Source of the DNA: a bacterium
GTDB lineage: Bacteria; Actinomycetota; Acidimicrobiia; Spongiisociales; ZC4RG35
Direction: 5' to 3'
Assembly (NCBI GenBank): GCA_028819345.1
Contig: JAPPLW010000059.1
Span: 3,890-67,889, forward strand
Length of the DNA: 64,000 nucleotides
Shown piece by piece: positions 8,060 through 38,716 of the stretch (position 1 is the first letter of the stretch; each line of letters opens with the position of its first letter). Made by a program: the position numbers and the translations under genes. The notes below the pieces were generated by a model. The model was given only the letters and a program-made list of their open reading frames with translations. It was not told where the DNA came from and made no database searches.

Positions 8060-8129
8060 CACCATTGGCGAACAGGAATACACTCGGCGCCTTGAGGACC
8101 AGTTTGTCGGTGATCAATTTGGCTGATTC

Positions 8130-9266: not shown

Positions 9267-9522
9267 CGACGCCTGCCCTTCCGACCAGTGCCGAGCCCAA
9301 GGCCACCGGTAGCGGATACCGTCCGGTCACACTCCCGGCATGCGGACCACGAGGACCGAAACCAGGGTATTCGATATGAGGTCATGGGAAAATCGTGTGC
9401 CTGCGTCGACGGGGGTGCTTGTGTTCGGAACTTTACAAGACCGTGCTGGAGAGGCGGCGGAGAAGTGGCGTCAGTAGAGTCTCGAGTGGGCACAGTTATC
9501 CATGCCGACCTGGGGGAATGCA

Positions 9523-12348: not shown

Positions 12349-12644
12349 CACTCGTCTCCTCCGTTCAAGAGCTCGGGCGCCCGACGAAGCGACCATGTGC
12401 AACCATGCCGTGCCGCGTTCCCGCTCGACGGCGTCGGGCCCAGGAATTATATCAATGCTGCCGGGTGGCCGGCCCCGGCATCTCCCCGACGACACCCGTC
12501 ACGGACCCTGTTGTGATATTTTGTCACATTCCTAAGATACGGCCCTATGTCAATTCGATCCCCCGGACCCGACCGGCGCCCTGGAGTGGCCGTCGACGGA
12601 GTAATGGCTACCGGCTGTGAGGCGAATCCGAGGCTGACTTACGC

Positions 12645-14756
12645 ATGAGCGCTTCCGGCCTTCGGCCGCCCGGCGAGGCACGAATCGGCGTTGACGTGGG
12701 AGGGACGTTCACCGATGTGGTGGTCACCAGCACGGGCGGGGAAATCTATACCTACAAACTGCTGTCGACCCCCAGGGACTTCAGCGAAGGCGTGGTCGAT
12801 GGGATCCGCGAGATCATCGAGTCACACGGCGTCGAGCCGGCCGACACCCGAGATGTGGTGCATGGAAGCACCGTGGCGACCAATGCCATCCTGGAACGAA
12901 AGGGCGCTTTCACGGGTCTTCTGACCACGGCAGGGTTCGCCGACGTGCTGGAATTGCGAAGACTGCGGGTCCCGAAGTTGTACGACGTGACCTGGCAGAA
13001 GCCCGAGCCGCTGGTGGAACGCTCGCGGCGCCTGGAGGTGATCGAACGAGTGGGCGTTGACGGCAAGGTGGTCACAGCCCTGGATCTCGACGACGCCCGG
13101 CAGAAGGTGGAGGCGCTCGTCGACCTCGGGGTGGAGTCGATCGCGGTGAGCCTCATCCACTCCTACGCCAATCCCTCGCACGAGACTGCCATCGGGGAGA
13201 TGCTCGCCAGTGAGCACCCCGAAGTGTGGGCCTCGCTCTCCCACCGGGTACTGCCCGTGATCCGGGAGTACGAGAGGACCAGCACGACCGTGCTGAACGC
13301 CTACGTCAGGCCGGTGGTGGCCTCCTATCTCGAAGCGCTCCGGGGAAAGCTCGACGGCCTGGACGTGACGGCGCCCTTGCTGATCATGCAGTCCAACGGC
13401 GGGGTCATGACCAGCGAGGCGGCAGCCGAGCGGCCGGCATACGTCGTCGAGTCAGGTCCGGCGGCGGGGGTGATCGCCTCGAGCGGGCTGGCCCGGTCGT
13501 TGGGGGTGGACAACGCCATCACCTTCGACATGGGCGGCACCACCGCCAAGACCGCATTGGTGGAAGATGGCGAACCGCATTTCACCGCCGAGTTCGAGGT
13601 GGCATCGGCGATGTCGGCCGGCAGTCGCTTGCGGAGCGGAGGAGGCTATGCACTGAGCGTGCCCTTCATCGACCTCGCCGAGGTGGGAGCGGGAGGCGGC
13701 AGCATCGTTTGGATCGACTCCGCCGGCGCTCCCAAGGTCGGTCCCTCCTCGGCCGGCGCCGACCCCGGTCCGGTGTGTTACGGGAAGGGAGGCGCCGAGC
13801 CCACGGTCACCGACGCCAACCTGTTGCTGGGGTATCTGAACCCCGCGGGGCTCTTGGACGGAGCGGTCAAGCTGGATGTGGAAGGAGCCCGGGCAGCGTT
13901 CGAGGAGAAGGTCGCCGGTCCGCTGGGCCTGGACATCCCGTTCGCCGCCTACGGGGCTCACCTGATCGCCAACGCCAGCATGATCCGGGCGATCAAGTCG
14001 GTCTCGGTCCAGCGGGGCCGGGATCCCCGCGACTTCACGCTGATCGCCTTTGGGGGGAGCGGTCCGGTCCATGCGATGGGGATCGCCAGGGAGTTGGGGA
14101 TCCGCCGGGTGATAGTGCCTCCCCAGCCCGGGGTGTTCTCCGCAGTCGGATTGCTGGAGGCCCGGCTGGAATTCCATGCCAAGAAGACCTTCCTCCGGCG
14201 CACCGCCGAACTGTCCCGGCGGGAACTCCAATCGGAGATCCGGGAACTGGAGGCCCAGGCGCGGGAAGGAGTGGGACATGGGAGCCTTCATACCGTCTCC
14301 TTCGAATTCGAGCCCTGGGTGGAGATGCGATACGTCGGCCAGGGCTTCGAGCTACCCGTGAGACTTCCGGGGTTCACCGACGACTGGACGTCATGGGTGG
14401 AGGAACTGGACCGGGCGTTCGGCGAGCAGCACCTCAACACTTACGGCCATGTGACCAACAACGCAACGGAGATCGTGCAACTGCTGGTGGTGATACGCGA
14501 ACAGAATCCGGTGGGCGTCCCGGTCGGCAGGCGCCCCGACTCGCAACCGGATGAGTCGAACAGGAGGGAAGTCTTCTTCGGCGGTGAGATCGGACTCCTG
14601 TCCACGCCGGTGCTCCGCCGCGGCGACCTCACGGCTACCCCCCGCCAGGCGCCGATGATCATTGAGGACTACGACGCCACCACGGTGGTGCCGCCCGGCT
14701 ACCGGGTCTTCCGGGACCGGTCCCAGAGTGTGATCATCGAGGAGGACTCGACATGA
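12645..14756 (+). CDS. hyuA: Hydantoinase/oxoprolinase family protein, subunit A (ATP-dependent)
   Basis: 703 aa. N-terminal ARIGVDVGGTFTDVV is the HyuA/oxoprolinase-A motif. Confidence 0.85.
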   Translation: MSASGLRPPGEARIGVDVGGTFTDVVVTSTGGEIYTYKLLSTPRDFSEGVVDGIREIIESHGVEPADTRDVVHGSTVATNAILERKGAFTGLLTTAGFADVLELRRLRVPKLYDVTWQKPEPLVERSRRLEVIERVGVDGKVVTALDLDDARQKVEALVDLGVESIAVSLIHSYANPSHETAIGEMLASEHPEVWASLSHRVLPVIREYERTSTTVLNAYVRPVVASYLEALRGKLDGLDVTAPLLIMQSNGGVMTSEAAAERPAYVVESGPAAGVIASSGLARSLGVDNAITFDMGGTTAKTALVEDGEPHFTAEFEVASAMSAGSRLRSGGGYALSVPFIDLAEVGAGGGSIVWIDSAGAPKVGPSSAGADPGPVCYGKGGAEPTVTDANLLLGYLNPAGLLDGAVKLDVEGARAAFEEKVAGPLGLDIPFAAYGAHLIANASMIRAIKSVSVQRGRDPRDFTLIAFGGSGPVHAMGIARELGIRRVIVPPQPGVFSAVGLLEARLEFHAKKTFLRRTAELSRRELQSEIRELEAQAREGVGHGSLHTVSFEFEPWVEMRYVGQGFELPVRLPGFTDDWTSWVEELDRAFGEQHLNTYGHVTNNATEIVQLLVVIREQNPVGVPVGRRPDSQPDESNRREVFFGGEIGLLSTPVLRRGDLTATPRQAPMIIEDYDATTVVPPGYRVFRDRSQSVIIEEDST

Positions 14757-16576
14757 CCGCATCGGGTGGAGCAGCCGCCATAGAGCGGGAACTGATCCGC
14801 GAGGGTCTGGCGGCGATATGCGAGGAGATGGCGGTGAGCGTCCTGCGGACTTCCCATTCGGAGACGGTGAAGAGCGCCATGGACTTCTCCACCGCCCTGT
14901 GTGACGAGACCGGGCAGATAATCGCCCAGGGAGTCACGCTTCCCAACCAACTCGGCGCCCTCCCGGAGGCGGTGGCGGCGATTCTGAGGCGTTTTGAGGG
15001 AGATCTCCATCCGGGCGACGTGGCCATGGTCAACGATCCGTTCGACGGCGGCATGCACCTTCCCGACATCTTCGTCGTGCGCCCTGTTTTCTTCGCCTCC
15101 GAGTTCGTGGGACTGGTGGCGACGGTGGCCCACCACGCCGACCTGGGCGGGATGGTGGCCGGGAGCATGTCCCCCTATGCGGAGGAGTGCTTCCAGGAGG
15201 GCCTACGGATCCCGCCGGTGAAGCTGTATTCGCGGGGAAGGCGGGAGGAGGGAGTGTTCGCCCTGCTGGGCGCCAACACCCGGGTGCCGGACATCGTCCT
15301 GGGAGACTTCGACGCGCAACTGGTGGCTTGTGCGACCGGCGTCCAAGCCTTCCACCGGATGATCCGCCGGTACGGATTGGCGGAGTTCAGGGCCCACGTG
15401 GCGGCTCTGTTGGACTACACGGAGATGCTCACCCGCCAGGAGATCAGGACCTTCCCCGAGGGGACCTACTCGTACGTCGACTATCTGGACGACGACGGTG
15501 TCCGCGACGATCCGGTGCCCATCGTCGTCTCCATCGAGATACGCGACGGTGGAGTCACCCTCGACTTCACGGGGAGCTCACCCCAGGTCCGGTCCTCTCT
15601 GAACAACACCCTGTCGTTCACCCATTCGAACACCTACGCGGCGATGCGCGCCCTGCTGCGGTCCGACATTCCCAACAACGCCGGGTTCTTCCGGCCGATA
15701 ACGGTCAAGGCGCCGCGGGGATGCATCCTCAACTGCGTCCTTCCGGCCGCCACCGGGACCCGCGGATTGACCGGTTTCAGGGTGATGGACGCCATCTTCG
15801 GCGCCCTGGCGCCCGCTCTCCCCGACCGGGTGATGGGCGCTTCCGACGGCGGGCTGTCGCTGGTGACGGTGGGAGGGGTGAGACCGGAGGGCGAGCGGTT
15901 CTCGGTGGTGGAACTGATCTCCGGGGCGTGGGGTGGCCAGGCTCTCCAGGACGGGGAGGACGGCGTGCCGAACGTGGGCGCCAATGTGAGCAACATCCCC
16001 GTCGAGATGCTCGAGTCGTCCCTTCCCGTGCGCGTCGATCGCTACGGCTACGTTCCCGACACGGGCGGCGCCGGCCTCCACCGGGGCGGCCTCTCACTCC
16101 AGCGCGAGTACACGTTCCTCCAGGAGTGCGACCTGAGCGTACGCTCCGACCGGGCAACCATCTATCCCTACGGGATCGGCGCCGGAAGGCCCGGAACCCC
16201 ATCATTGAACCTTCTGGGTCCGGATGGCGAGGAGACGCGGATGCCGTCGAAGTTCTCCCAGCGGGTCACGGAAGGGATGCGCCTGATTCATCGCACCGCC
16301 GGCGCCGGCGGTTGGGGAGACCCGCTCTACCGGGACCCGGAGCAAGTCGCAACCGATGTTCACAACGGGATACTGTCAACCGAGCGGGCATTCGCCGAAT
16401 ACGGGGTGGTCCTGATGCCGGATACGGACGAAGTCGACCGGGAAGCCACCGAAACGGAACGGACGGCACGCCGCGCCACGTCTGAAGACGCCACGTCCAC
16501 CCCGATCTCTCCATCGGCCCCGACACCGCTGGAGGACCGCATCAGCGACAAACTAAGAGCGTCTGGGAAGTTCTAG
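14753..16576 (+). CDS. hyuB: Hydantoinase/oxoprolinase family protein, subunit B
   Basis: ATGA overlap with hyuA. 607 aa with HyuB-type sequence (DPFDGGMHLPD...). Confidence 0.85.
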   Translation: MTASGGAAAIERELIREGLAAICEEMAVSVLRTSHSETVKSAMDFSTALCDETGQIIAQGVTLPNQLGALPEAVAAILRRFEGDLHPGDVAMVNDPFDGGMHLPDIFVVRPVFFASEFVGLVATVAHHADLGGMVAGSMSPYAEECFQEGLRIPPVKLYSRGRREEGVFALLGANTRVPDIVLGDFDAQLVACATGVQAFHRMIRRYGLAEFRAHVAALLDYTEMLTRQEIRTFPEGTYSYVDYLDDDGVRDDPVPIVVSIEIRDGGVTLDFTGSSPQVRSSLNNTLSFTHSNTYAAMRALLRSDIPNNAGFFRPITVKAPRGCILNCVLPAATGTRGLTGFRVMDAIFGALAPALPDRVMGASDGGLSLVTVGGVRPEGERFSVVELISGAWGGQALQDGEDGVPNVGANVSNIPVEMLESSLPVRVDRYGYVPDTGGAGLHRGGLSLQREYTFLQECDLSVRSDRATIYPYGIGAGRPGTPSLNLLGPDGEETRMPSKFSQRVTEGMRLIHRTAGAGGWGDPLYRDPEQVATDVHNGILSTERAFAEYGVVLMPDTDEVDREATETERTARRATSEDATSTPISPSAPTPLEDRISDKLRASGKF

Positions 16577-28430: not shown

Positions 28431-29330
28431 CTACTCGGGAGCCCTGCCCACTTCGGCGCCCATCATGTGCTCCAAGGCCTTGACCAGGGCGTGCTGACCC
28501 TCCGATCCCAGACCCCGGTGCTGCAGCGACCGGTAGAGCTGGAACACCAGACCAGTGGTCGGCAGGGGAACGCCCAACTCGTCCCCCGCCTCCAGGACCA
28601 GGCGGATGTCCTTCTGCTGAAGGTCGATGGTGAATCCCGGGCGCCAGTCCCGAACGATCATCTGCGGTCCCCGGTTGGCCAGCATCCACGAGTTGGCCGC
28701 ACCACCGGTCAGAGCCGACAGGGCTGTCTCCAGGTCCAGCCCGCCCGCGTCGGCCAGCAGCAACGCCTCACACGCCGCTTGCATGTTCACCACCACCAGC
28801 ACCTGGTTCACCAGCTTCACCATCTGTCCCGACCCCACCGGACCGACATGGGTGATGGTTTTTCCCATCGCATCCAGATAGGGGCGCACCCTATCCAGAT
28901 CGGAGGCGTCGCCTCCCACCATGATCGACAGGGTCCCAAGCTCCGCTCCTTCGCTTCCGCCGCTCACCGGACCGTCCAGCCAGGAGCCTCCCGCCTCGGA
29001 GGCCAGACCTGCCAGACGCCGGGTCTCTGACGGGCTGATGGTGGAGTGGTCGACAACCAACGAACCCGGGGACAGCCCGGCCAGGATCCCGTCGGGCCCT
29101 TCGGTGACAGCTACCACGTCGGGAGTGTCGGCAACGCAGATCAACACCACGGTGGATTGTTCCGCCACTTCCCGGGGCGACCCCGCCGGCGAGGCGCCCA
29201 GGTCGGTCACCGGCGCCATCTTGGAAGCGGTGCGGTTCCACACCGTCACCTCGAAGCCGGCGCGCACCAGGTTGGCGGCCATCCCTCCCCCCATGATCCC
29301 CAGCCCGATGAATCCAAGCTTCTCACTCAC
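28431..29330 (-). CDS. NAD-dependent 3-hydroxyisobutyrate dehydrogenase family reductase
   Basis: Start SEKLGFIGLGIMGG (Rossmann fold) and HIBADH-family catalytic region. Start chosen at the GTG at 29330, which has AAGGAG 5 nt upstream; the ORF track extends to 29354. Confidence 0.8.
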   Translation of the reverse strand: MSEKLGFIGLGIMGGGMAANLVRAGFEVTVWNRTASKMAPVTDLGASPAGSPREVAEQSTVVLICVADTPDVVAVTEGPDGILAGLSPGSLVVDHSTISPSETRRLAGLASEAGGSWLDGPVSGGSEGAELGTLSIMVGGDASDLDRVRPYLDAMGKTITHVGPVGSGQMVKLVNQVLVVVNMQAACEALLLADAGGLDLETALSALTGGAANSWMLANRGPQMIVRDWRPGFTIDLQQKDIRLVLEAGDELGVPLPTTGLVFQLYRSLQHRGLGSEGQHALVKALEHMMGAEVGRAPE

Positions 29331-29495
29331 TCGATCTCCTTTCTCTCCCATCACAACCGGCGCCTGTCCACCCTCCAGGTTCGGGCAGGCGCCGAAGCAA
29401 CTCTTCTATCAGGCTTTCCCTTTCGAGGGTACCAACCCGGGGCCGCCCCCTGCACGGAAGGAGGACCCCCTCTTCCACCCGGCAGGGAGGTCCGG

Positions 29496-30629
29496 TCAGT
29501 AGATGCCGGGAAAGATCCGGTACTTGACCCGTTCCTGGTACTCGGCCCACTTCTCGGGGCCGTACTTCTCGGCGCAGAACCGTTCATCGTAGATTTGACG
29601 CGTCGTGAAGAACGAGACTATGAAGATGAAGTAGGTCCAGGCCCAGAGATTGCCGATGTAGCCGAACACCAGGGAGATCGAGAGGGCCAGGAACCCCTCG
29701 CCCAGGTAATTGAAGTGCCGGGCGACGCCCCAGAAACCGCTGCACAGGATCTTGCGGTCGCCCGCCTTGATGTGCACCGGGTCGATGAGCCCCAGGAACT
29801 TGCGGTCGGGCCACCGCTTGAACGTGTACTTCTGCAGATTGGCGCCCCGGCCGATCGCCCATCCCCCCAGGAACAGCACGGGCGTTCCGATCAACCAGAC
29901 ATACCTGAACGGCCCCGAGAACCCGGGGTCCGGGTGGACGGCCATGCCCCATAGGGGAAGGATGTACAGCCACCCGTAGACGATGAGCCCACCCCACATC
30001 AGCTTGAAACCGAGATTCTCGTGGATGAGGTCGTAGGTGTAAAGCTGGACTCGCTCGAAGACGAAGTAGTCCATGATGTAGAAGGTGAAGAACGCCGCAT
30101 ACAGGAAGACGCCGGGATTGGAGTCCTCACCGAATAGCTCGTAGTGATAAGCGGCTCCCGACAGGGCGTTCAATGCGAACATCGCCCCGCCGACCACGTA
30201 CAGGTACATCTTGACGTCGACCCCGAGGAACGACACCTCCCGGGCACGGCCCTCCCACAGCGCCAGCCACGTGTTCTCGTTCTCGCCCTTCGGCTGGCTG
30301 AACACCACCGCCAGGGTGAGGATCACGGCCAGGACGGTCCCGCCGGCCACGGCGTAGACCGAGGACCGGTAGAACCAGGCTCGCTCCATCCCGGTGAGTT
30401 CGAAGGCCCAAACGACCAGCACCACCACGTAGACCAAGAGACCGTTCAGCCGGTAGCGGCGAGGTTCGCCGGTCGCCGGATCGGTGACGTAGCCGGGCAC
30501 CCTTCGGGCCGGCAGTATCAGCTGCAACAGGAAGAACACTGCGAAAACCACCAGCGGGGTGAGGAACCCCGCGATCGCCTCCGAGCCGGAGAGTTCGAAA
30601 AGGTGGTCGATGCCGAGCCATTCAATCAC
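29496..30629 (-). CDS. Sterol reductase family membrane protein (ERG4/ERG24, 7-dehydrocholesterol reductase-like)
   Basis: Polytopic membrane protein. C-terminal signature GFWGVARHFNYLGEGF...YDERFCAEKYGPEKWAEYQERVKYRIFPGIY matches the eukaryotic sterol-reductase signature almost residue for residue. Confidence 0.8.
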   Translation of the reverse strand: MIEWLGIDHLFELSGSEAIAGFLTPLVVFAVFFLLQLILPARRVPGYVTDPATGEPRRYRLNGLLVYVVVLVVWAFELTGMERAWFYRSSVYAVAGGTVLAVILTLAVVFSQPKGENENTWLALWEGRAREVSFLGVDVKMYLYVVGGAMFALNALSGAAYHYELFGEDSNPGVFLYAAFFTFYIMDYFVFERVQLYTYDLIHENLGFKLMWGGLIVYGWLYILPLWGMAVHPDPGFSGPFRYVWLIGTPVLFLGGWAIGRGANLQKYTFKRWPDRKFLGLIDPVHIKAGDRKILCSGFWGVARHFNYLGEGFLALSISLVFGYIGNLWAWTYFIFIVSFFTTRQIYDERFCAEKYGPEKWAEYQERVKYRIFPGIY

Positions 30630-30906
30630 GACGGGTTACTCCTTCCTGGGGTGGAGCGATCTCCCCGATGATCGCATCCGTCGGCTTGCCGGTGGAGGGT
30701 GGCGCCTGCAGAATCGACGATGGCGGTCACCTATCCCCTTGGCTACCACCATACCGCCGGCCCATAGCCTCACCAAGGAATTGCCTCGACTTCACCGGCG
30801 CCGTGGGTCCAAGATAAAGGGAGTGTCCTGGCGGGCGCCTCACACCCGCCCGTGGCGGCCGCAAAGGCGCCGACAGGTTAGGGGGCCGAACGCCGGAGCC
30901 TGTCCT

Positions 30907-31290
30907 CTAGGCCTGGTAGAGCAGTATCAGGTTTCCACAAGTGTCGTCAAGGACGGCTTGGATAACCTGCCCTGCGCGTGTTGGTTCCCCTTTGAATGAC
31001 ACTCCTAGGGCTGTCAATCGGTCGTACTCTGCCTGGATGTCATCTACAGCAAACGCCGCTCCGGGTATGCCCTGTTGGAAGATTCCCTCCTGGTAGGTCT
31101 TGGCAACCGGGTTGTCGTTTGGTTCGAGAAGCAACTCGACGTCATCGGGTCCTTCGGGGGAGACGACAGTCAGCCACTTGAACTCCCCCACCGGGAAGTC
31201 ATGTTTCTTGACAAAACCGAGGATCTCGGTGTAGAACCTGAGGGCTTTGTCCTGATCCTCCACGAACACGCTTGTGAGGTTGATCTTCAA
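30907..31290 (-). CDS. VOC family protein (glyoxalase/bleomycin-resistance fold)
   Basis: 127 aa with VOC-type sequence (KINLTSVFVEDQDKALRFYTEILGF). Confidence 0.65.
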   Translation of the reverse strand: MKINLTSVFVEDQDKALRFYTEILGFVKKHDFPVGEFKWLTVVSPEGPDDVELLLEPNDNPVAKTYQEGIFQQGIPGAAFAVDDIQAEYDRLTALGVSFKGEPTRAGQVIQAVLDDTCGNLILLYQA

Positions 31291-31444
31291 TTGAATCCCC
31301 TGCTTTCTTCGTCTCGCCGGAACTGTCGAGGATGGCGTTTCGGCAATGATAATCCACCCCCGGGATGACCGGCCTGCCGGTCTGTTTGCCGCCGAAACCT
31401 TGATCGTTAGTGTGGCTGCTGTGCAAGCTGGAGAATTGACTTAG

Positions 31445-32962
31445 ATGAGCGAGAGACGAACGATCGGGGCCATCGACCAGGGCACCACCAGCACCCGGTT
31501 CATGATCTTCGATCACTCGGGGGCGGTGGTCGCCTCTGCGCAGCGGGAATTCCGCCAGATCCTGCCCAAGCCGGGATGGGTCGAGCACGACCCGATGGAG
31601 ATCCTCGATACCACGGAGGGAGTGGTCGACGAGGCACTCCGATCCGCGGGGTTAGGGGTCGAGGACCTGGTTGCGGTCGGGATCGCCAACCAGCGGGAGA
31701 CCACTGTCGTCTGGGACCCCACTTCCGGCAGGCCGGTGGCCAACGCCATCGTCTGGCAGGACACGAGGACCGACCGGATCTGTAAGAGACTGGCCCGGGA
31801 AGGCGGTATCGACCGGTTCCGGGACCGGACCGGCCTTCCCCTGGCCACGTACTTCAGCGGCCCGAAGGCTGCCTGGATCCTGGAAGGGGTGGATCGCGCG
31901 GCCGAGAAGGCGGCTTCGGGCCAAGCTGTCATGGGCACGGTCGACTCGTGGCTGGTCTGGAACCTCACAGGTGGAGTCGACGGGGGGAGGCACATCACCG
32001 ACGTCACCAACGCCTCGCGGACCCTGCTGATGGATCTCGACGACCTCGACTGGAGTGATGACCTGCTCGGGGCCATGGGAATTCCCCGCTCGATGATGGC
32101 CGAGGTCCTCCCCTCCATCGGTCGCGTGGGTACCGGGTCCGGCGTTCTCGAGGGCGTTCCGATCTCGGCCATCCTGGGAGACCAGCAGGCAGCGCTGTTC
32201 GGCCAGACATGCTTCCAACCCGGCGAGGCCAAGAACACCTACGGCACAGGGTGCTTTCTGCTCATGAACACGGGCCCTCGAAAGGTGCCTTCGACCCATG
32301 GCTTACTGACCACGGTCGGATACCAGATCTGCGGATCCGATCCGGTCTATGCGCTGGAAGGGTCGGTGGCGGTCACCGGGTCCCTGATCCAGTGGCTCCG
32401 TGACAACCTGGGGATGATCTCCACCGCGCCGGAGGTGGAAGCACTGGCCGCCTCGGTCCCCGACAACGGCGATGTCTACTTCGTTCCGGCCTTCTCGGGC
32501 CTCTTCGCTCCGCATTGGAGGACGGATGCCCGGGGCGTCATCACTGGCCTGACCCGGTACTCCAACAAGGGTCACATAGCCCGGGCCGCCTTGGAGGCCA
32601 CCGCCTACCAGACCCGGGAGGTCCTCGAGGCCATGCGGGCCGACTCCGGCGTGGCGCTGACCGAGTTGCGAGTGGACGGGGGCATGGTGGGCAATGATCT
32701 TCTAATGCAGTTCCAGTCGGACATCCTCGACGTCGAGGTGGTGTGCCCGCGGGTGAGCGAGACCACCGCGCTGGGCGCCGCTTACGGCGCCGGGCTTGCA
32801 GAGGGATTCTGGGCCGGCCTGGATGATCTGCGCCGCAACTGGCAGGAAGACCGGCGCTGGTCACCGCAGGTGCCGGAAGAGGCCCGGGAGGCCCGGTACG
32901 CCCGGTGGCAGAAAGCCGTGACCCGGTCTCTGGACTGGGTGGGCGACGTCTCATCGGGGTAG
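31445..32962 (+). CDS. glpK: Glycerol kinase
   Basis: [16 protein letters not shown]-terminus. 505 aa with FGGY-kinase motifs throughout. Confidence 0.9.
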
Positions 32963-33054: not shown

Positions 33055-33636
33055 ATGTGCCACCCGGAGCCGAACAGGAGGCGGTCGCGCCGCATACTCA
33101 GAAGTAGAAGGGCGCTGGCCGCCATCCTGGCGTTGTCCATCGTCCTGGCCGGCTGCGGCGGGTCAACCGAGGAGCCAACCAGCGCCGAGGTCCCTGAAAC
33201 GACCGCGCCGACCACGACATCGGCGCCCACGACAACCACCACCGAACCACCCCCGGTGGACACCGCCCCCGCCGAAGAAGCCGCCGAAGAAGCCGCCTCC
33301 ACCTCCGACGAGCCGGTGGACATGGTGGTGCACCTCCGCGAGAAGACCATGCACCTGTGGGACGTCTACAACACCCACGACCCCGACGCACTCAAGATCT
33401 TCTACTCGGACAGCTATTGGGAAGAGGAAAAGGAAAGCCTCAGGGCAAACATGCAGCCCTTCATAAACCAGAACTTGACCTTTACCGCGGAAGAGACCTC
33501 TCCGCCCACCGAGATCGCCCCGGGCAAGTGGGAGACCAAGCACACCGCCCGCTTCCCGGGAGGGCTTGTGAACATGGTGTTCATCTACGAAGAGTTCGAC
33601 GGAACCTGGCTCCTCACCTTCGCAAAACCCCAGTAG
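33055..33636 (+). CDS. Secreted lipoprotein of unknown function (Tat-like signal, Thr/Pro-rich linker)
   Basis: RRSRRILRSRRALAAILALSIVLAGC is an RR motif plus lipobox. Then a TTAPTTTSAPTTTTTEPPP linker and a small globular domain of roughly 100 aa. Confidence 0.55.
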   Translation: MCHPEPNRRRSRRILRSRRALAAILALSIVLAGCGGSTEEPTSAEVPETTAPTTTSAPTTTTTEPPPVDTAPAEEAAEEAASTSDEPVDMVVHLREKTMHLWDVYNTHDPDALKIFYSDSYWEEEKESLRANMQPFINQNLTFTAEETSPPTEIAPGKWETKHTARFPGGLVNMVFIYEEFDGTWLLTFAKPQ

Positions 33637-33779
33637 ACCTCACAACGGCTCAACCGTGCGTTCGGGGCTCATATGCCTTTGCGATTGGCGTTTCGGATCT
33701 GACCGGCGCAACTTGGGCAAAACGGCCCGGGAGGGCAGGTTCGGTATGATCTCCTAGCCGAGCCGATCGTAGGAGTACC

Positions 33780-34574
33780 GTGCCTCTGGACTTTCCCGAC
33801 ATCTCGAAGAACCTGTTCGACCTGAGGGGCTATTGCAGCGTGGTGACCGGAGCCGGGCAGGGGATCGGCCTGGCACTCTCGAAGGGCTTGGCGAATGCCG
33901 GGAGCGACCTGGTGCTGGTGGACATGAACCCAGAGACCCTGGAGAACGCCGCCGGTGAGATAGCCGATGTCGGCCGCAACGTGTCAACCGTCCATGCCGA
34001 CGTGACCGCCGAGGACACACCCGAGCGGATCGTTCAGGCTGCTTTGGGGCTGAACGAACGGATCGACGTGCTGGTAAACAACGCCGGTGTCATGGGGTAC
34101 TCGGACATGCTGGACGTCACCGACGAGGGGTGGGACCGCATGTACGGGATAAACCTGCGCGCTCCCATGCGGATCATGCGGACGGTACTCCAGGAGATGA
34201 GCCGGGCGGGCCGGGGAAGCGTGATCAACATCGGCAGTTCCTGGTCGTCACGGGCCTCGATCTTCAACCAGGACGGAGGCGGGGTCGACTACTGCTCGGC
34301 CAAGGCCGCACTTCAGGCTCTCAGCCGGGCGGCCGCCCAGGACGTGGCGCCCTACGGGGTCCGGGTGAACGCCATCGCCCCCGGAGCGGTGGACACGCCC
34401 ATGCACGCACACCATCGCGAGTACCTGTTCTCGTATGAGAAGTACATCCCGATCGGGCGCATGCAGGTGGCAGAAGACCTGGTGGGGCCGGTGATCTTCC
34501 TGGCCTCGGACGCCGGCGCCTACGTGACGGGCCAGACCATCCACGTCAACGGCGGCATCCTGATGGTCGACTGA
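33780..34574 (+). CDS. SDR family oxidoreductase
   Basis: TGAGQGIG Rossmann motif, catalytic YxxxK region (YCSAKAAL). Confidence 0.85.
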   Translation: MPLDFPDISKNLFDLRGYCSVVTGAGQGIGLALSKGLANAGSDLVLVDMNPETLENAAGEIADVGRNVSTVHADVTAEDTPERIVQAALGLNERIDVLVNNAGVMGYSDMLDVTDEGWDRMYGINLRAPMRIMRTVLQEMSRAGRGSVINIGSSWSSRASIFNQDGGGVDYCSAKAALQALSRAAAQDVAPYGVRVNAIAPGAVDTPMHAHHREYLFSYEKYIPIGRMQVAEDLVGPVIFLASDAGAYVTGQTIHVNGGILMVD

Positions 34575-34616
34575 TATTCTCTGCGGTTGGTACCCATAAC
34601 CGACCAGGAGGATTGA

Positions 34617-35447
34617 ATGTTCACCCGCGATCAGGTGTGGCAGAGGCTGCAAGCCACCCTCGCCGAGGGCAGACCGGTCATCGGAGCGGGCGCCGGGACC
34701 GGCATTTCGGCAAAATTCGCCGAGCGGGGCGGGGCGGACCTGATCCTCATCTACAACTCGGGCCGGTACCGGATGGGAGGTCACGGATCGAATGCGGGGT
34801 TGATGCCCATCGGTGACGCCAACGCCATCGTGATGGAGATGGGCGAGAGGGAAGTCCTGCCGGTGGTGGAGAACACGCCGGTGATAGCGGGGGTGAACGG
34901 GACCGACCCCACCCGGGTGATGGACCGCTTCCTGGGACAGGTGGAGGCGATGGGCTTCTCGGGCGTCATCAACTTCCCTTCCGTGGGCTACATCGACGGG
35001 CGGTGGCGCCAGAGCCTGGAAGCCACCGGGTTCGGCTACTACCGGGAGGTGGAGATGATCCGCAAGGCCTCGGAGCGGGGACTGTTCAGCCTGGCCTACT
35101 GCTACGACCCGAAGGAGGCGCCGATGATGGCCGAGGCGGGAGTGGACGTGATGGTCGCCCACCTGGGCTTGACCACCGGCGGAAGCATCGGCGCCGACGA
35201 TTCCTTCACCACTTCTCTGGATGCCTGCGTGGAGCAGGCGATCGAGACCCGGGAGTTGTCGGAGGCGGTGAACCCCGACATCCTGGTGGTGCTGCACGGC
35301 GGTCCCCTGGAGAACCCCGGACAGGTAGACATGGTGATGCGCGCCTCCGGTTGCCCCGGCTTCATCGGCGCCAGCACCATGGAGCGCCTGCCCACCGAGG
35401 TTGCCATCGAGAACACGGTGCGAGGCTTCAAGGACATCGTCCTCTGA
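34617..35447 (+). CDS. Phosphoenolpyruvate hydrolase-like TIM-barrel protein (Tm-1 C-terminal domain-like)
   Basis: 276 aa with GAGAGTGISAKF...LILIYNSGRYRMGG, which resembles the PEP-hydrolase-like family that pairs with UPF0261. Confidence 0.6.
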   Translation: MFTRDQVWQRLQATLAEGRPVIGAGAGTGISAKFAERGGADLILIYNSGRYRMGGHGSNAGLMPIGDANAIVMEMGEREVLPVVENTPVIAGVNGTDPTRVMDRFLGQVEAMGFSGVINFPSVGYIDGRWRQSLEATGFGYYREVEMIRKASERGLFSLAYCYDPKEAPMMAEAGVDVMVAHLGLTTGGSIGADDSFTTSLDACVEQAIETRELSEAVNPDILVVLHGGPLENPGQVDMVMRASGCPGFIGASTMERLPTEVAIENTVRGFKDIVL

Positions 35448-35496
35448 GAGAGGTGTCTATCCACCGGCTCGCCTTCACCTCCCAAACCGGTCCGCA

Positions 35497-36708
35497 ATGA
35501 GTCGGGTGGTGGTGGCCGGCGCCTTCGACACGAAGGCGGAGCCACTCGGGTTGCTGGTGGAGACGCTCACCGGTATGGGGTCTCCTCCCATCACCATCGA
35601 CACGGGAGTATTCGGCGGCGACCACGGCTGTCACCATCCGGCCGGGGCCGTGGCCGAGGCGGCCGGGTACTCGCTGGGACAGGTGCCTTCTCTCGGTCAA
35701 GCCGAGGCGGTCTCGGCGATGGCCAGGGGAGCCTCGGTGATCCTCGGAGAACTGGTTGCAGACGGGAAGGTGGGCGCTCTGGTCTGTCTGGGCGGGTCCA
35801 ACGCCTCGGTGCTCTTCACCCACCTGGCGCCGGTCGTGCCGCTCGGGGTCCCCAAGGTCCTGATGGCCACCTCGGTGGCCGGGGAGACCCGGCCGCTGGT
35901 CGACGGCCGCGACGTGACGATGATCTACCCGATCGTGGACATCGAGGGCGACAACAGCATCCTCCGGGCCATGATCGCAAGGCTGGCGCGGGTGACGGTG
36001 GCCCTGTTGGGATCGGGGCCTTTGAGCGATCCGGAAGGTCCGGCCGAGTCGGTGGGGATGACGATGTACGGCCTTACCAACCCCTGCGTGACCCACTGCC
36101 GGTCGTTGCTCTCTTCGGCCGGCCTCGAATCGGTGGTGTTTCACGCCAACGGGACGGGCGGGCGGACTTTCGAGTCGTTCATCTCCCAGGGGCTCGTCTC
36201 CTCGGTGATCGACATCACCATCTCCGAGATCACCGACGAACTGTTCGGCGGCCTCTGGCCTGCGGGTCCGGAGCGGCTCCGGACCGCCGCACGGATGGGA
36301 GTCCCCCAGGTGGTGGCGCCCGGGGCGATCGACATGATCTGTGTCGGCCCCCTCTCCACTGTGCCGGAGACATTCCGCAGCCGAGCCGTCCAGTCTCACA
36401 ACGAACTGGTGACCCTGGTGCGGACCACCCCGGAGGAGAACTACCGGATGGGTCGGACGGTGGCCGAACGCCTGGGAACGCCGCAGGCCAGGACGGTGGT
36501 GCTGGTGCCCTTGAGAGGGTTCTCCGGGCTGGACGTCGAAGGGGGTCCGTTCCACGACCCCGCGGCGGTGGACGCCTTTCTGGAGGGGGTGAATTCCGGT
36601 GTGGCGCCGTCGGTGTCGGTGGTGGGAGTGGACCACCATATCAACGACCGCGAGTTCGCCGAGGCGCTGGTGGGCGAATCCGTCTCGCCGTTCGCCACCT
36701 TGAGGTAG
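35497..36708 (+). CDS. UPF0261 family protein (Tm-1 N-terminal domain-like)
   Basis: N-terminus VVVAGAFDTKAEPL, about 400 aa, immediately downstream of the PEP-hydrolase-like gene. ATG at 35497. Confidence 0.6.
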   Translation: MSRVVVAGAFDTKAEPLGLLVETLTGMGSPPITIDTGVFGGDHGCHHPAGAVAEAAGYSLGQVPSLGQAEAVSAMARGASVILGELVADGKVGALVCLGGSNASVLFTHLAPVVPLGVPKVLMATSVAGETRPLVDGRDVTMIYPIVDIEGDNSILRAMIARLARVTVALLGSGPLSDPEGPAESVGMTMYGLTNPCVTHCRSLLSSAGLESVVFHANGTGGRTFESFISQGLVSSVIDITISEITDELFGGLWPAGPERLRTAARMGVPQVVAPGAIDMICVGPLSTVPETFRSRAVQSHNELVTLVRTTPEENYRMGRTVAERLGTPQARTVVLVPLRGFSGLDVEGGPFHDPAAVDAFLEGVNSGVAPSVSVVGVDHHINDREFAEALVGESVSPFATLR

Positions 36709-36718
36709 GAAACGGGTC

Positions 36719-38716
36719 ATGGCGTTCGAGAACCTGCTGCGGCCGGCATACATCAACCGGATGTACATGCGCAACCGTCTGATCGTCGGACCGATGGAGA
36801 AGTCCCTGGCCAACCTGGACGGCAGTCTCAACCAGCGCTACATCGCCTATGCGCGTCGGCGGGCCATGGGCGGGGCGGCGCTGATCCAGCTCGAGTCGAC
36901 CTACGTCTCACCCGAGGGCCGGGGGAATCCCTACCAGGTGGGATGCCACGGGGACCATGTCATACCGGCCCTGGCGGAGATGGCCGACGAACTCCACCGC
37001 CACGGCGCCAAGCTGGCGATGGAACTGCACCACGGGGGACGCCAGGCATCGGTCACCGCCCATCATCGCCGTACGATCGCACCGTCTGCGATCGGCTCGA
37101 CATTCATGGACCCCGGGTCGGTCCCCCGGGAGATGACCCTGGCGGATATCCGGAGGGTGGTCGACGACTTCGGGCGGGCGGCCGAGCGTTGCCTCCTCGC
37201 CGGAGTCGACATGATCCACCTGCACGGCGCCCACGGGTATCTACTGGGGCAGTTCCTGTCTCCGCTGTCCAACCGCCGGACCGACCGCTACGGGGGGTCG
37301 CTGGAGAACCGGGCGCGCTTTGCGTTGGAGGTGCTCGAGGAGGTGCGCAGGGTGGTCGGCGACGATTACCCGATCGGGTACCGGATCTCGGCGGCCGAGT
37401 ACGTCGAAGGCGGGCTGCAGGCCGAGGAGTCGGCTCGGTTCTGTGTCATGCTGGCCGACGCCGGGATCGACCTGGTCGACGTGGCGGGCGGCACCTACGA
37501 GTCGATGTCGAAGATCTTCCAGGGCCCGGAAACGCCCAAAGGGGGTTTCGTGGCGGAGGCCGCCCTGATCCGTCAAGCGCTCGGTGACCGGGTCCCGGTG
37601 AGCGTGGCGCAGCGGATGAACGACCCGGTGTTCGCCGACCAGGTCATGGAGAGGGAGAGATTCGAGTACGTGACCCTGGCCCGCGCCTTTCACGCCGATC
37701 CCGACTATGTGCTGAAGCTCATGGAAGACCGCGCCAGGGACATAGTGCCGTGCATCAGCTGCAACACCTGTGTCAACCTGACGGTGGCCCGCACACCGGC
37801 GGGGTGCGCGGCCAATCCGGTGAGCGCTCACGAGCACTTGCGCACCACCCCCATGCGGAAGGCAGCGGCGCCCCTGCGGGTGATGGTGGTCGGAGGTGGG
37901 CCGGCAGGGATGCACGCCGCCCGCTTTCTGGGACAGGGGGGCCACGATGTGACCCTGTGCGAGGCGACCGGCAGGCTGGGCGGCCAGCTCCACTACCTCC
38001 GCCAAGCCCTGTCCGAGTACGGGACGCTGGTCGACTGGCTGGCGCTGGAGCTGGCCGGGGTGGGCGTGAGGGTGGAGTTGGGGCGCCCGGTCGGTGTCGA
38101 GGATGTGCGGGAGGCGGACCCTGATGCGGTGATTGTGGCCACCGGGGCGAGGGGCGGCTACCTGTGGGCCGAGGAGTCGGATCGGACAATTCCGCTGTTC
38201 GATGTCTTCTCGGCATTGGAACGCCCGCCCGAGGAGTGGGAGGGAGCGGTGGCGATACTCGGTGGGGACCATGCGGGGTGTGCCGTGGCCCTCCACCTTC
38301 GACGGTTGGGCGTGGAGGTCCACATCATCGAAAGCGGCGCATCCGTGGCGTCCGACGGAGGGTTCAACGGACTGCTGGTGGAGATGGAACTCGACGCCGA
38401 CCCGGGAGTGCATATCCACCGGGAGACCATCGCCGAACTAATCGCCGGCGACCGAGTGGCCCTCCAAGGGCTCGGGAACCATAGTTGGCTGAAGTTGGGT
38501 GCGGTCGTCGTGGGAGGGAGGGCGCCCAACAACCGGCTGGCAGATGAACTGTCACGCGCCGATCTCCAGGCCGCCATCCTCCCGATCGGCGACGCCGTGG
38601 GCGTCCGGGACCTGTACGCGGCCGGCCAGGAGGCCGCCGAGGCGGCAGAGAAGGTGAGTCTGATGTCCCTTTCGAACTTCAGTCGGTTCTCAAACGGAAC
38701 GGGCTTGAGCAGCTAG
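36719..38716 (+). CDS. NADH:flavin oxidoreductase (Old Yellow Enzyme family) fused to an FAD/NAD(P)-binding domain (2,4-dienoyl-CoA reductase-like)
   Basis: OYE TIM-barrel N-terminal half (HGAHGYLLGQFLSPLSNRRTDRYGGS). C-terminal half has a GGGPAG dinucleotide-binding motif and Cys cluster CISCNTC. Confidence 0.8.
   Translation: MAFENLLRPAYINRMYMRNRLIVGPMEKSLANLDGSLNQRYIAYARRRAMGGAALIQLESTYVSPEGRGNPYQVGCHGDHVIPALAEMADELHRHGAKLAMELHHGGRQASVTAHHRRTIAPSAIGSTFMDPGSVPREMTLADIRRVVDDFGRAAERCLLAGVDMIHLHGAHGYLLGQFLSPLSNRRTDRYGGSLENRARFALEVLEEVRRVVGDDYPIGYRISAAEYVEGGLQAEESARFCVMLADAGIDLVDVAGGTYESMSKIFQGPETPKGGFVAEAALIRQALGDRVPVSVAQRMNDPVFADQVMERERFEYVTLARAFHADPDYVLKLMEDRARDIVPCISCNTCVNLTVARTPAGCAANPVSAHEHLRTTPMRKAAAPLRVMVVGGGPAGMHAARFLGQGGHDVTLCEATGRLGGQLHYLRQALSEYGTLVDWLALELAGVGVRVELGRPVGVEDVREADPDAVIVATGARGGYLWAEESDRTIPLFDVFSALERPPEEWEGAVAILGGDHAGCAVALHLRRLGVEVHIIESGASVASDGGFNGLLVEMELDADPGVHIHRETIAELIAGDRVALQGLGNHSWLKLGAVVVGGRAPNNRLADELSRADLQAAILPIGDAVGVRDLYAAGQEAAEAAEKVSLMSLSNFSRFSNGTGLSS

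What the first reader, a model, noticed from the sequence alone, without database searches (positions are those of the whole stretch)
29496..30629. Eukaryote-like sterol reductase (ERG4/ERG24, DHCR7 family) in a bacterial metabolic neighbourhood
The C-terminal 60 residues match the eukaryotic sterol C=C reductase signature nearly residue for residue (ARHFNYLGE ... YDERFCAEKYG...YQERVKYRIFPGIY). No squalene or oxidosqualene cyclase genes are in the window. Bacterial members of this family are rare and mostly of unknown substrate. Here the gene sits beside a HIBADH-like reductase, a VOC protein and glpK.
Basis: partly seen in the sequence, partly recalled or inferred. Interest (0 to 1): 0.55.

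Follow-up and report, generated by a model that had tools for sequence, protein, structure and literature searches.

The report
Sponge-symbiont sterol-reductase-like enzyme, uncharacterized branch
This gene encodes an intact membrane NADPH reductase with the sterol-reductase fold; it belongs to an uncharacterized, unusually conserved branch of that family shared by marine-sponge bacteria of about a dozen phyla, and in some of them it sits beside sterol-modifying genes.

Summary
Window 29496-30629 (-) is an intact 377-aa gene. It matches Pfam ERG4_ERG24 (111.7 bits, cutoff 27). Its model has the full fold of the bacterial delta14-sterol reductase MaSR1 (TM 0.81) and keeps every NADPH-contact and predicted catalytic residue.

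The interpretation needs correcting on three points.
1. The gene is not rare. At least 553 loci in species-representative genomes encode a relative. The best 80 are 73-97% identical and span about 12 phyla. Wherever provenance could be checked, the source was a sponge.
2. It is not the known C14 reductase. A symbiont sterol cluster (SE-OSC, CYP51, SdmA/B) carries its own ERG24 gene, only 30% identical. Real yeast ERG4 and the C14 reductases form one branch. This protein lies on another branch that has no characterized member.
3. Its window neighbours (HIBADH-like, VOC, glpK) are lineage-specific and say nothing about function.

Twelve of 141 related loci place the gene beside sterol methyltransferases, GPP34-P450 fusions, KshA-like oxygenases and MMPL or sterol-sensing transporters, with no cyclase nearby.

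Best reading: an NADPH-dependent sterol C=C reductase spread horizontally among sponge symbionts. Which double bond it reduces is unknown; a side-chain bond made by the methyltransferase is my leading guess. I could not determine whether this genome makes sterols.

The parts
29496..30629 (-). CDS of the 377-aa 'clade B' ERG4/ERG24-fold membrane reductase (stop codon included)
   Evidence: ORF. Pfam PF01222, 111.7 bits. AF2 model with pLDDT 95 and pTM 0.92. TM 0.81 to 4QUV. The N-terminus MIEWLGI... aligns from residue 1 with the 379-aa homologs. dN/dS 0.09-0.14 against orthologs.
30630..30669 (-). Upstream leader with the Shine-Dalgarno sequence GGAAGGAG about 8 nt before the GTG start
   Evidence: Sequence read directly.
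30078..30080 (-). Codon of Tyr184, equivalent to MaSR1 Tyr241 / ScERG24 Tyr257 (predicted proton donor)
   Evidence: Alignment columns: Tyr in 82/82 clade-B copies and 8/8 canonical reductases. The role comes from PMC12489058.
29697..29741 (-). SGFWGVARHFNYLGE, the cofactor-binding signature. It includes Asn307 (MaSR1 N359 / LBR N547) and Glu311 (MaSR1 Asp363, predicted catalytic acid)
   Evidence: The N359 and R395 roles in NADPH binding come from PMC4951196.
29598..29600 (-). Codon of Arg344, equivalent to MaSR1 R395 / LBR R583 (NADPH phosphate contact)
   Evidence: Invariant in all 84 sequences of alignment A1 and in all groups.
29499..29567 (-). C-terminal KYG...Y...RIFPGIY motif (Lys355, Tyr356, Tyr364), the last helix of the NADPH pocket
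28431..29354 (-). Context only: HIBADH / 2-hydroxy-3-oxopropionate-reductase-like gene 141 nt downstream on the same strand. No functional link found
   Evidence: Pfam and NCBIfam. Shared only by 6 closely related loci.
30907..31290 (-). Context only: VOC/glyoxalase-fold gene 277 nt upstream. It is a variable indel among close relatives
   Evidence: Pfam. Window 30836-31443 has no counterpart in L001, L002 or L004.

Best explanation
The gene encodes a polytopic inner-membrane, NADPH-dependent C=C reductase with the ERG4/ERG24 (MaSR1-type) fold. By analogy with that family, a conserved Tyr (Y184), held by an acidic residue (E311), protonates one carbon of a double bond in a membrane-embedded sterol. 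NADPH then delivers a hydride to the other carbon. The cofactor is held by N307, R344, K355, Y356 and Y364.

The protein belongs to a discrete subfamily that I call clade B. Its members are about 379 aa long and have a median pairwise identity of 79%. Clade B is distinct from the C14 reductase of bacterial sterol clusters, from fungal ERG4 and, on weaker evidence, from DHCR7. It has spread horizontally among bacteria of about a dozen phyla that live in marine sponges.

The most likely substrate is a sterol. That sterol could be made by the symbiont (some genomes also carry an SE-OSC fusion) or taken from the sterol-rich host. My leading guess for the bond is a side-chain double bond left by sterol C-24 methyltransferase. 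I put that sub-claim at about 0.35.

Shown here: the fold, the residues, the distribution, the distinctness from known subfamilies, and the gene neighbourhoods of relatives. Inferred: sterol as the substrate, the position of the bond, and the source of the sterol. The window copy itself stands alone among ordinary metabolic genes.
For: Fold and chemistry:
- PF01222 scores 111.7 bits.
- The AF2 model has pLDDT 95.
- TM is 0.81 to MaSR1 over 374 columns, and at most 0.40 to the next folds.
- All 82 clade-B copies keep Y184, E311, N307, R344, K355, Y356, Y364, W300, R304 and H305.
- dN/dS is 0.09-0.14.

Distinct from the C14 reductase:
- L052 has the cluster SE-OSC / CYP51 / ERG24 (241 bits to Pfam) / SdmA / SdmB. 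A separate clade-B copy lies 3 kb away.
- The two are 30% identical, and 23 positions separate the two clades.

Sterol link:
- Bona fide SMTs (Sterol_MT_C, 43-65 bits against a cutoff of 21.7) lie within 4 kb of clade B in L055, L072, L077 (two copies), L078, L075, L094 and L096.
- Some of these and five further loci also carry GPP34-P450 fusions, KshA-like Rieske oxygenases, LolA-like proteins and MMPL transporters. One of the MMPL transporters has a sterol-sensing domain.
- In all, 12 of 141 loci in two phyla plus independent metagenomes show this module.
- OSC lies on the same chromosome as clade B in at least 6 cases, judged by matching contig lengths.
- SMT next to a reductase has a precedent in Brown et al. 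2023, Supplementary Data.

Sponge link and HGT:
- Bin names and record titles point to sponges.
- All 60 JGI hits come from a few projects, including P. ficiformis and A. aerophoba.
- The ERG24 KO is enriched in 16 of 16 comparisons in Kelly et al..
- Cross-phylum copies are 77-78% identical at the nucleotide level, with dS of 0.7-1.0.
- The gene tree mixes phyla.
Against: - No biochemical data exist for any member of this branch.
- About 120 of 141 loci, including the window, show no sterol gene within 10 kb. The only recurrent neighbours are lineage-specific.
- The sterol-gene adjacencies come from few independent lineages: Thermodesulfobacteriota/Dadabacteria, one Dehalococcoidia and one Gemmatimonadota.
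- Homology does not support the side-chain idea. Real ERG4 is the most distant group (3.5-27 bits).
- I could not show OSC, SMT or any sterol gene in the window's own genome. The nearest complete genome (contig length 2607473) was absent from the OSC hit list, which shows only the best 120 of 1499 hits.
- Sponge origin rests on bin names and two verified project codes, not on sample metadata.
- The tree is neighbour-joining only.
Confidence: 0.6

Rival explanations
1. It is simply the bacterial delta14-sterol reductase (ERG24/TM7SF2 ortholog), as KEGG and JGI annotations and the closest solved structure suggest. In that case it reduces the delta14 bond left by CYP51 during de novo sterol synthesis.
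For: The best PDB match is the C14 reductase MaSR1. Sources name relatives 'delta14-sterol reductase' or 'ergosterol biosynthesis protein'. The catalytic Tyr and acid are conserved as in C14 reductases.
Against: The protein is only 30% identical to the ERG24 gene that sits in the CYP51-OSC operon of sponge symbionts, and both genes co-reside in L052. It lies in a different superclade from MaSR1. In the SMT/P450/MMPL modules there is no CYP51 or OSC to supply a delta14 substrate. Arg398 of MaSR1, invariant in canonical members, varies in clade B.
Confidence: 0.1
2. It reduces a nuclear (ring) double bond other than delta14, for example delta7 (DHCR7-like) or delta8(14). This would remodel host sponge sterols, which commonly carry such unsaturations.
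For: The family is known to evolve different regiospecificities on the same fold. KshA-like Rieske oxygenases lie next to clade B in L008, L012, L053 and L075, and such enzymes could act on sterol rings. From memory and untested: the C-terminal motif WGVARHFNYLGE resembles that of vertebrate DHCR7.
Against: An unverified recalled DHCR7 probe scores 273-281 bits with the canonical clade and only 87 bits with the window protein. No C-5 desaturase or delta8-delta7 isomerase was seen near any copy. The most specific sterol neighbour is the side-chain methyltransferase.
Confidence: 0.15
3. It is not a sterol enzyme. It would reduce another membrane isoprenoid or lipid olefin (polyprenol, hopanoid, carotenoid or a sponge-derived terpenoid), or have a non-catalytic role. 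The occasional sterol-gene neighbours would then be coincidental.
For: About 120 of 141 loci lack any sterol gene nearby. The branch has no characterized member. Many NCBI records call relatives 'DUF1295 domain-containing protein'. Sponges are rich in unusual terpenoids (general knowledge).
Against: Sterol-specific partners recur next to it in two phyla and in independent metagenomes: the Sterol_MT_C domain, a sterol-sensing-domain transporter, and SdmA/B-OSC clusters. Such genes are rare in bacteria, so repeated adjacency is unlikely by chance. The full 10-TM sterol-reductase fold and its catalytic residues are retained.
Confidence: 0.15

Closest known systems
MaSR1 (PDB 4QUV), delta14-sterol reductase of Methylotuvimicrobium alcaliphilum; with it the ERG24/TM7SF2/LBR C14 reductases
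   Same: Same Pfam family. Same overall fold (TM 0.81, rmsd 3.3 A over 374 columns). Same NADPH-contact residues (N359/R395/K406/Y414 correspond to N307/R344/K355/Y364). Same predicted catalytic Tyr241/Asp363 pair, here Y184/E311.
   Different: Only 28-30% identical. It lies in a different deep branch. 23 clade-specific positions differ, and the canonical Arg398 is lost. The gene is not in a CYP51-OSC operon, and it co-exists with a true ERG24 in L052.
Sponge-symbiont 'clusters of steroid genes' (Kelly et al. 2022) and the msb locus of a Melophlus symbiont (Mohanty et al. 2020)
   Same: Same ecological setting and the same pattern of cross-phylum horizontal spread. The 'ERG24' KO those authors found enriched probably includes this clade. 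The L052 cluster matches msbA-E gene for gene.
   Different: The window gene is the stand-alone, 'scattered' type, not the operon member. The papers in the searched library do not separate the two clades.
Fungal ERG4, delta24(24(1))-sterol reductase, and the SMT-ERG4 gene pairs in environmental metagenomes (Brown et al. 2023, Supplementary Data)
   Same: Same superfamily. In several relatives the gene is paired with a sterol C-24 methyltransferase, as ERG4 homologs are in lake-sediment and hot-spring contigs.
   Different: Real ERG4 (P0448 and relatives) scores only 3.5-27 bits against the window protein and clusters with the C14 reductases. ERG4 has His at the N307 position, Tyr at the W300 position and Lys at the H305 position.
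Sterol reductases of intracellular bacteria that lack sterol synthesis: the Coxiella burnetii delta24 reductase and chlamydial homologs, including sponge-associated chlamydiae
   Same: A precedent for a host-associated bacterium using an ERG4/ERG24-family enzyme on host sterols (literature cited).
   Different: I could not compare sequences because none were available through the tools. Those organisms are obligate intracellular; the carriers here are a broad extracellular sponge consortium.
Uncharacterized ERG4/ERG24-family proteins of choanoflagellates, chytrids and amoebozoans (e.g. Monosiga brevicollis A9VAA6)
   Same: These are the nearest named sequences outside the MAG-only outgroups, at 140-202 bits and 37-41% identity over the C-terminal two thirds. 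They share the same deep branch.
   Different: They have Phe where clade B and all canonical reductases have the predicted catalytic Tyr. Their function is also unknown.

Membership tests
ERG4/ERG24 sterol-reductase superfamily (Pfam PF01222) | Significant match to the family HMM above the gathering score | tested here: met
   111.7 bits against a cutoff of 27, E=5e-32. Residues 27-377 align to profile positions 76-432.
ERG4/ERG24 sterol-reductase superfamily (Pfam PF01222) | MaSR1-type polytopic fold with the NADPH pocket in the C-terminal half | tested here: met
   AF2 pLDDT 95, pTM 0.92. Foldseek TM 0.81 to 4QUV. SRD5A2 and ICMT match only partially, at TM 0.40 or less.
ERG4/ERG24 sterol-reductase superfamily (Pfam PF01222) | NADPH-contact residues (MaSR1 N359, R395, K406, Y414) and the predicted catalytic Tyr241/Asp363 | tested here: met
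   N307, R344, K355, Y364, Y184 and E311 (Asp to Glu, also seen in 2 of 8 canonical members). All are present in 82 of 82 clade-B copies.
ERG4/ERG24 sterol-reductase superfamily (Pfam PF01222) | NADPH-dependent reduction of a sterol C=C bond | not testable with these tools
   Needs an enzyme assay or heterologous expression.
Delta14-sterol reductase (ERG24/TM7SF2/LBR/MaSR1 orthologs) | Clusters with characterized C14 reductases | tested here: not met
   Lies in a separate superclade in the NJ trees. 30% identical to the cluster-encoded ERG24. Phmmer scores are 115-128 bits to the canonical group and 140-202 bits to the uncharacterized group.
Delta14-sterol reductase (ERG24/TM7SF2/LBR/MaSR1 orthologs) | Genomic association with CYP51 and OSC, which supply the delta8,14 substrate | tested here: not met
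   None in the 64-kb window or in 139 of the 140 related loci. In L052 the operon has its own ERG24.
ERG4 delta24(28)-sterol reductase | Sequence clustering with verified ERG4 | tested here: not met
   Window against six real ERG4 sequences: 3.5-27 bits. ERG4 groups with the C14 reductases.
ERG4 delta24(28)-sterol reductase | Functional pairing with a sterol C-24 methyltransferase | tested here: inconclusive
   An SMT lies within 4 kb in 7 relatives (L055, L072, L075, L077, L078, L094, L096). None lies in the window or in most loci.
DHCR7 (delta7-sterol reductase) | Sequence clustering with DHCR7 | tested here: inconclusive
   Only an unverified, recalled human DHCR7 probe was available. It scores 273-281 bits with the canonical clade and 87 bits with the window protein. 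The AFDB libraries were unavailable.
DUF1295 / ICMT / SRD5A (shorter relatives that share the C-terminal cofactor module) | Best match to these families, with their 7-8 TM architecture | tested here: not met
   DUF1295 scores 21.0 bits against a cutoff of 20.4, over residues 220-368 only. Structural matches are TM 0.28-0.39.
Sponge-symbiont cluster of steroid genes (ERG24-CYP51-LSS operon; msb locus) | The gene lies in the operon with CYP51 and the SE-OSC fusion | tested here: not met
   The window copy and its paralog lineage (L038, L028) stand alone. Only L052 has a clade-B copy near such a cluster, on the opposite strand.

The most novel reading that the evidence does not exclude
Clade B is the missing bacterial sterol side-chain reductase. 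It would work downstream of the symbiont sterol methyltransferases that make 24-methylene, 24-ethylidene and 24-isopropyl-dienol sterols, and would saturate the side chain on sterols imported from the sponge or made by the symbiont. In this reading it is the core of a horizontally shared 'sterol-remodelling' trait of the sponge microbiome, together with GPP34-P450 fusions, KshA-like oxygenases and sterol-sensing RND transporters, and needs no cyclase. Bacteria could then complete sponge-type 24-alkyl sterols, including 24-isopropylcholesterol, from host precursors.
Probability: 0.3. Interest if true: 0.75.

Novelty: new variant of a known kind. Interest (0 to 1): 0.55.

Why it matters
Steranes derived from sponge-type sterols such as 24-isopropylcholestane are used as the oldest chemical evidence for animals. 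Whether sponge bacteria can make or finish these sterols is actively debated (Brown et al. 2023; Kelly et al. 2022).

This gene marks a second reductase in those bacteria. It has not been separated from the known one in the papers I could search, and it is more widespread in these symbionts than the known sterol operon appears to be. In some lineages it is physically linked to the side-chain methyltransferases and to sterol transporters, without a cyclase. That makes one hypothesis concrete and testable: symbionts remodel host sterols.

It also flags a likely systematic mis-annotation. These proteins are labelled 'delta14-sterol reductase' or 'DUF1295', yet they belong to a deep branch of the family with no characterized member.

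For the window's own organism the finding is modest. It has one intact, stand-alone copy, and its substrate source is unknown.

Tried and rejected
1. A conserved operon partner. I clustered all ORFs of 80 loci plus the window all-against-all. No neighbour family occurred in more than 13 of 81 loci, and those were generic SDR or ABC families.

2. The second paralog of the window's lineage (L038, L028) as the cluster copy. It also stands alone, next to GcvT-like and 2-hydroxyacid-dehydrogenase genes.

3. 8,14-Bsr and the myxobacterial C-24 reductase as relatives. Both belong to unrelated folds, NTF2 and geranylgeranyl reductase.

4. ICMT/DUF1295 identity. Rejected by HMM scores and by fold.

5. 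ERG4 orthology. Rejected using real ERG4 sequences retrieved with a recalled probe.

6. Presence of OSC in the window's nearest complete genome. I tried matching contig lengths between hit lists. This was inconclusive because only the best 120 of 1499 OSC hits are listed.

7. Naming tree tips through cluster look-ups. Thirty representatives gave no characterized names.

8. AFDB fold search, to get named ERG4 and DHCR7 neighbours. The library was unavailable.

9. Confirming the accession OZ242375 in the literature. No hit.

10. Promoter and terminator scan around the gene. Only weak consensus matches, nothing informative.

11. tRNA and Rfam scans of the window. Nothing found.

12. The MMPL neighbour as HpnN or BstA. 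It gives only weak sub-threshold matches and is a generic HAE3 RND transporter.
Full report
THE OBSERVATION

Window 29496-30629 on the minus strand is an intact ORF of 377 aa. It starts with GTG, and a GGAAGGAG ribosome-binding site lies about 8 nt upstream. SGFWGVARHFNYLGE is encoded at 29697-29741 and KYGPEKWAEYQERVKYRIFPGIY at 29499-29567. Pfam assigns the protein to ERG4_ERG24 (PF01222) with E=5e-32 and 111.7 bits, against a cutoff of 27. DUF1295 reaches only 21 bits, over the C-terminal part. No NCBIfam model matches. The best solved relative is the bacterial delta14-sterol reductase MaSR1, PDB 4QUV, at E=4e-32.

The neighbours are as described:
- a HIBADH/tartronate-semialdehyde-reductase-like gene, 28431-29354 (-);
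- a VOC gene, 30907-31290 (-);
- glpK, 31445-32962 (+);
- a GntR/FCD regulator, a class-III aminotransferase and an amidase further along.

The window holds no oxidosqualene or squalene-hopene cyclase, CYP51 or SdmA/B. The other large ORFs I annotated are ordinary metabolic genes. There are no tRNAs or Rfam hits.

FOLD AND CHEMISTRY

An AlphaFold2 model built on an 84-sequence alignment is very confident, with pLDDT 95 and pTM 0.92. It superposes on MaSR1 with TM 0.81 over 374 columns. SRD5A2, PbSRD5A and ICMT share only the cofactor module and reach TM 0.28-0.39.

The literature gives residues to test:
- MaSR1 N359 and R395 bind NADPH. They correspond to the LBR disease sites N547 and R583 (PMC4951196).
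- MaSR1 Tyr241 and Asp363 are the predicted proton-donor pair (PMC12489058).

In a computed alignment the window protein has N307, R344, Y184 and E311 at these columns, plus K355, Y356, Y364, W300, R304 and H305. All 82 copies of its clade have the same residues. The gene is under purifying selection, with dN/dS of 0.09-0.14 against its four orthologs. It is therefore very probably an active NADPH-dependent C=C reductase.

IT IS NOT RARE, AND IT BELONGS TO SPONGE SYMBIONTS

The best 80 are 73-97% identical. Their record titles assign them to Acidimicrobiia, Dehalococcoidia/Chloroflexota, Nitrospirota, Nitrospinota, Binatia, Latescibacterota, Gemmatimonadota (Ca. Palauibacter), Thermodesulfobacteriota, Ca. 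Dadabacteria, Acidobacteriota, Opitutales and Alphaproteobacteria. A protein search gave 2045 clusters, and the top 120 were all at least 74% identical.

Many bins are named for sponges: RHO for Rhopaloeides odorabile, COS, SB066x, Spongia_Bin and Ca. Palauibacter rhopaloidicola. The scan of 241 million JGI metagenome records returned 60 loci from only a handful of projects. Brown et al.'s supplement identifies the LXNJ records as a Petrosia ficiformis metagenome and JGIcombinedJ30088 as Aplysina aerophoba.

The window itself is collinear with an R. odorabile MAG (RHO1_bin_22) and with a complete Acidimicrobiia chromosome (OZ242375.1). It is about 92% identical to them in DNA over about 20 kb. 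Sponge origin of the UUID-named MAGs is my inference, because the accession could not be found in the literature.

Within the clade the median pairwise identity is 79%, and 51% of columns are at least 95% conserved. Copies in different phyla are still 77-78% identical in DNA, with dS of about 0.7-1.0. The gene tree joins classes through very short internal branches and mixes some phyla. Gene GC tracks the GC of the flanks (r=0.82), so the gene has had time to adapt to each host genome. Together this argues for horizontal spread followed by strong constraint.

Kelly et al. 2022 reported the KEGG 'ERG24' annotation as enriched in sponge MAGs. In their table it is enriched in 16 of 16 comparisons, more consistently than the cyclase or CYP51. 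They also noted 'scattered' copies.

IT IS NOT THE KNOWN STEROL-CLUSTER REDUCTASE

Locus L052 (Ca. Palauibacter) carries the sterol operon already described from sponge symbionts, the msbA-E locus of Mohanty et al. and the 'CSG' of Kelly et al. Its genes are:
- an SdmB-like epimerase;
- an SdmA-like Rieske oxygenase;
- a 368-aa ERG24 that scores 241 bits to Pfam;
- CYP51;
- an 1188-aa squalene-epoxidase-OSC fusion.

About 3 kb away, on the other strand, lies a 379-aa copy that is 74% identical to the window protein. The window protein and the operon ERG24 are only 30% identical. Twenty-three positions cleanly separate the two clades.

In a library of 1.84 billion representatives clustered at 50% identity, the whole window clade collapses to one full-length representative. 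Its nearest outgroups are at 50%, 44% and 43% or less. Neighbour-joining trees and phmmer scores split the superfamily into two deep branches:
- Superclade I holds MaSR1, the operon ERG24 and real fungal ERG4. The ERG4 sequences were retrieved with a recalled probe that turned out 99% identical to S. cerevisiae Erg4p.
- Superclade II holds the window clade, a few MAG-only outgroups and uncharacterized proteins of choanoflagellates, chytrids and an amoebozoan.

The window protein scores 115-128 bits to canonical C14 reductases, 140-202 bits to the uncharacterized group and only 3.5-27 bits to ERG4. I had no verified DHCR7 sequence. A recalled, unverified probe scores best with superclade I (273-281 bits) and 87 bits with the window protein. 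I count this only as a lead. The 30 superclade II representatives I looked up carry no characterized name.

GENOMIC CONTEXT

No neighbour is conserved across the clade. The window's HIBADH and glpK synteny is confined to its four closest relatives, and the VOC gene segment is missing in three of them. The second paralog in the same Acidimicrobiia genomes (L038, L028; 73% identical) also stands alone. Tandem duplicates occur in five loci.

A subset of loci is informative. In Thermodesulfobacteriota/Dadabacteria loci (L008, L012, L053, L055, L072, L077, L078), in a Dehalococcoidia locus (L075) and in independent sponge metagenome contigs (L094, L096, L098, L112), the gene lies within a few kb of one or more of these:
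- sterol C-24 methyltransferases with the Sterol_MT_C domain (43-65 bits, cutoff 21.7), directly adjacent in L055, L072 and L078, and present twice in L077;
- GPP34-cytochrome-P450 fusion proteins;
- KshA-like Rieske oxygenases, 58% identical between the two phyla;
- DUF1302-like and LolA-like proteins;
- MMPL/RND transporters, one with a sterol-sensing domain.

None of these twelve loci holds OSC or CYP51. This looks like a sterol-modifying and sterol-transporting module rather than a synthesis cluster. Counting L052, 13 of 141 loci in three phyla link the clade to sterol genes.

The window's nearest complete genome was not in the best 120 OSC hits listed, out of 1499, so that case is unresolved.

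HOW IT MOST LIKELY WORKS

Shown here: the fold, the cofactor and catalytic residues, selection, distribution, distinctness from known subfamilies, and sterol-gene adjacency in relatives.

Inferred: the enzyme sits in the cytoplasmic membrane, binds NADPH from the cytoplasmic side and reduces a double bond of a sterol that enters from the bilayer. By analogy with ERG24, the mechanism would be protonation by the Tyr184/Glu311 pair and hydride transfer from NADPH.

I put 'sterol C=C reductase distinct from the C14 enzyme' at about 0.6-0.7. Which bond it reduces is open. The repeated pairing with SMT, and the precedent of SMT-ERG4 pairs in other metagenomes, make a side-chain olefin the leading guess, at about 0.35. 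Homology to ERG4 does not support it. A ring double bond (about 0.15), the classical delta14 bond (about 0.1) and a non-sterol lipid (about 0.15) remain possible. Whether the window's organism makes its own sterol or uses host sterol could not be determined.

NOVELTY AND VERDICT

The enzyme family and the presence of 'ERG24-like' genes in sponge symbionts are already known. As far as the searchable literature shows, three things appear to be new:
- the stand-alone gene is a separate, ultra-conserved clade on an uncharacterized deep branch of the superfamily;
- it is not the cluster's C14 reductase;
- in several lineages it is embedded in a cyclase-less sterol-modification and transport module.

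I rate it a new variant of a known kind, with moderate interest (0.55). For this particular window it is a single, stand-alone member. For the field it is a concrete candidate enzyme bearing on who finishes sponge-type sterols.

Noticed in passing
L075:12803-14854(+); L077:5287-7305(-) and 7632-9650(-); also L008, L053, L055, L072, L094, L112: Proteins of 670-685 aa that fuse an N-terminal GPP34 domain (Golgi phosphoprotein 3, a eukaryotic lipid-binding domain) to a cytochrome P450. They recur next to the clade-B reductase in two phyla. I know of no described bacterial GPP34-P450 fusion. The substrate is unknown.
   Followed up: partly
L075:16050-18551(-): An MMPL/RND transporter carrying a sterol-sensing domain (PF12349, 47.7 bits, plus the Patched SSD). 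It sits directly beside a sterol methyltransferase in a Dehalococcoidia sponge-symbiont MAG.
   Followed up: no
L052:1290-4856(-), and 120 database relatives of mostly 1116-1168 aa (four shorter): A squalene-epoxidase-oxidosqualene-cyclase fusion protein. It is 75-95% identical across many MAGs, the same cross-phylum conservation pattern as the reductase. It was already described as MsbE in a Melophlus symbiont.
   Followed up: partly
window 30836-31443 (contains the VOC gene 30907-31290): This roughly 600-bp segment has no counterpart in the otherwise collinear relatives L001, L002 and L004, but is present in L003. It is a small presence/absence polymorphism right next to the gene of interest.
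   Followed up: partly
window 33659-38694, compared with L001 6042-7576: About 5 kb of the window has no aligned counterpart in the RHO1_bin_22 contig, though most of it aligns with OZ242375.1. The segment holds an SDR, a PEP-hydrolase-like gene, a 435-aa ORF and the start of an old-yellow-enzyme-type reductase.
   Followed up: no
L005:10001-11140 and 11334-12479; L117, L121, L122, L124: Tandem duplicates of the clade-B reductase, with the two copies 62-67% identical to the reference. The Acidimicrobiia genomes have two unlinked paralogs instead. The repeated duplication suggests more than one substrate.
   Followed up: partly
Alignment column of window Y184 in the eukaryote-like group (P0259, P0278, P0313 and others): All 15 uncharacterized choanoflagellate, chytrid and amoebozoan relatives have Phe where clade B and all canonical reductases have the predicted catalytic Tyr. 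They may use a different proton donor or may not be reductases.
   Followed up: no
L038:12826-15243(+) and L028:12816-15233(+): An 805-aa protein with RCC1 repeats (a eukaryotic-like repeat) and an SLH domain lies near the second reductase paralog in the Acidimicrobiia symbiont. It is typical of the 'eukaryotic-like proteins' of sponge symbionts.
   Followed up: no
window 33055-33636(+): A 193-aa ORF with a signal/lipobox-like N-terminus, a Pro/Thr/Glu-rich linker and no Pfam match, between glpK and an SDR gene.
   Followed up: no
window 12645-16576(+): A hydantoinase/oxoprolinase A and B gene pair. With the nearby amidase, amidohydrolases and aminotransferase it suggests a region devoted to breaking down small nitrogenous compounds, a common theme in sponge symbionts.
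   Followed up: no
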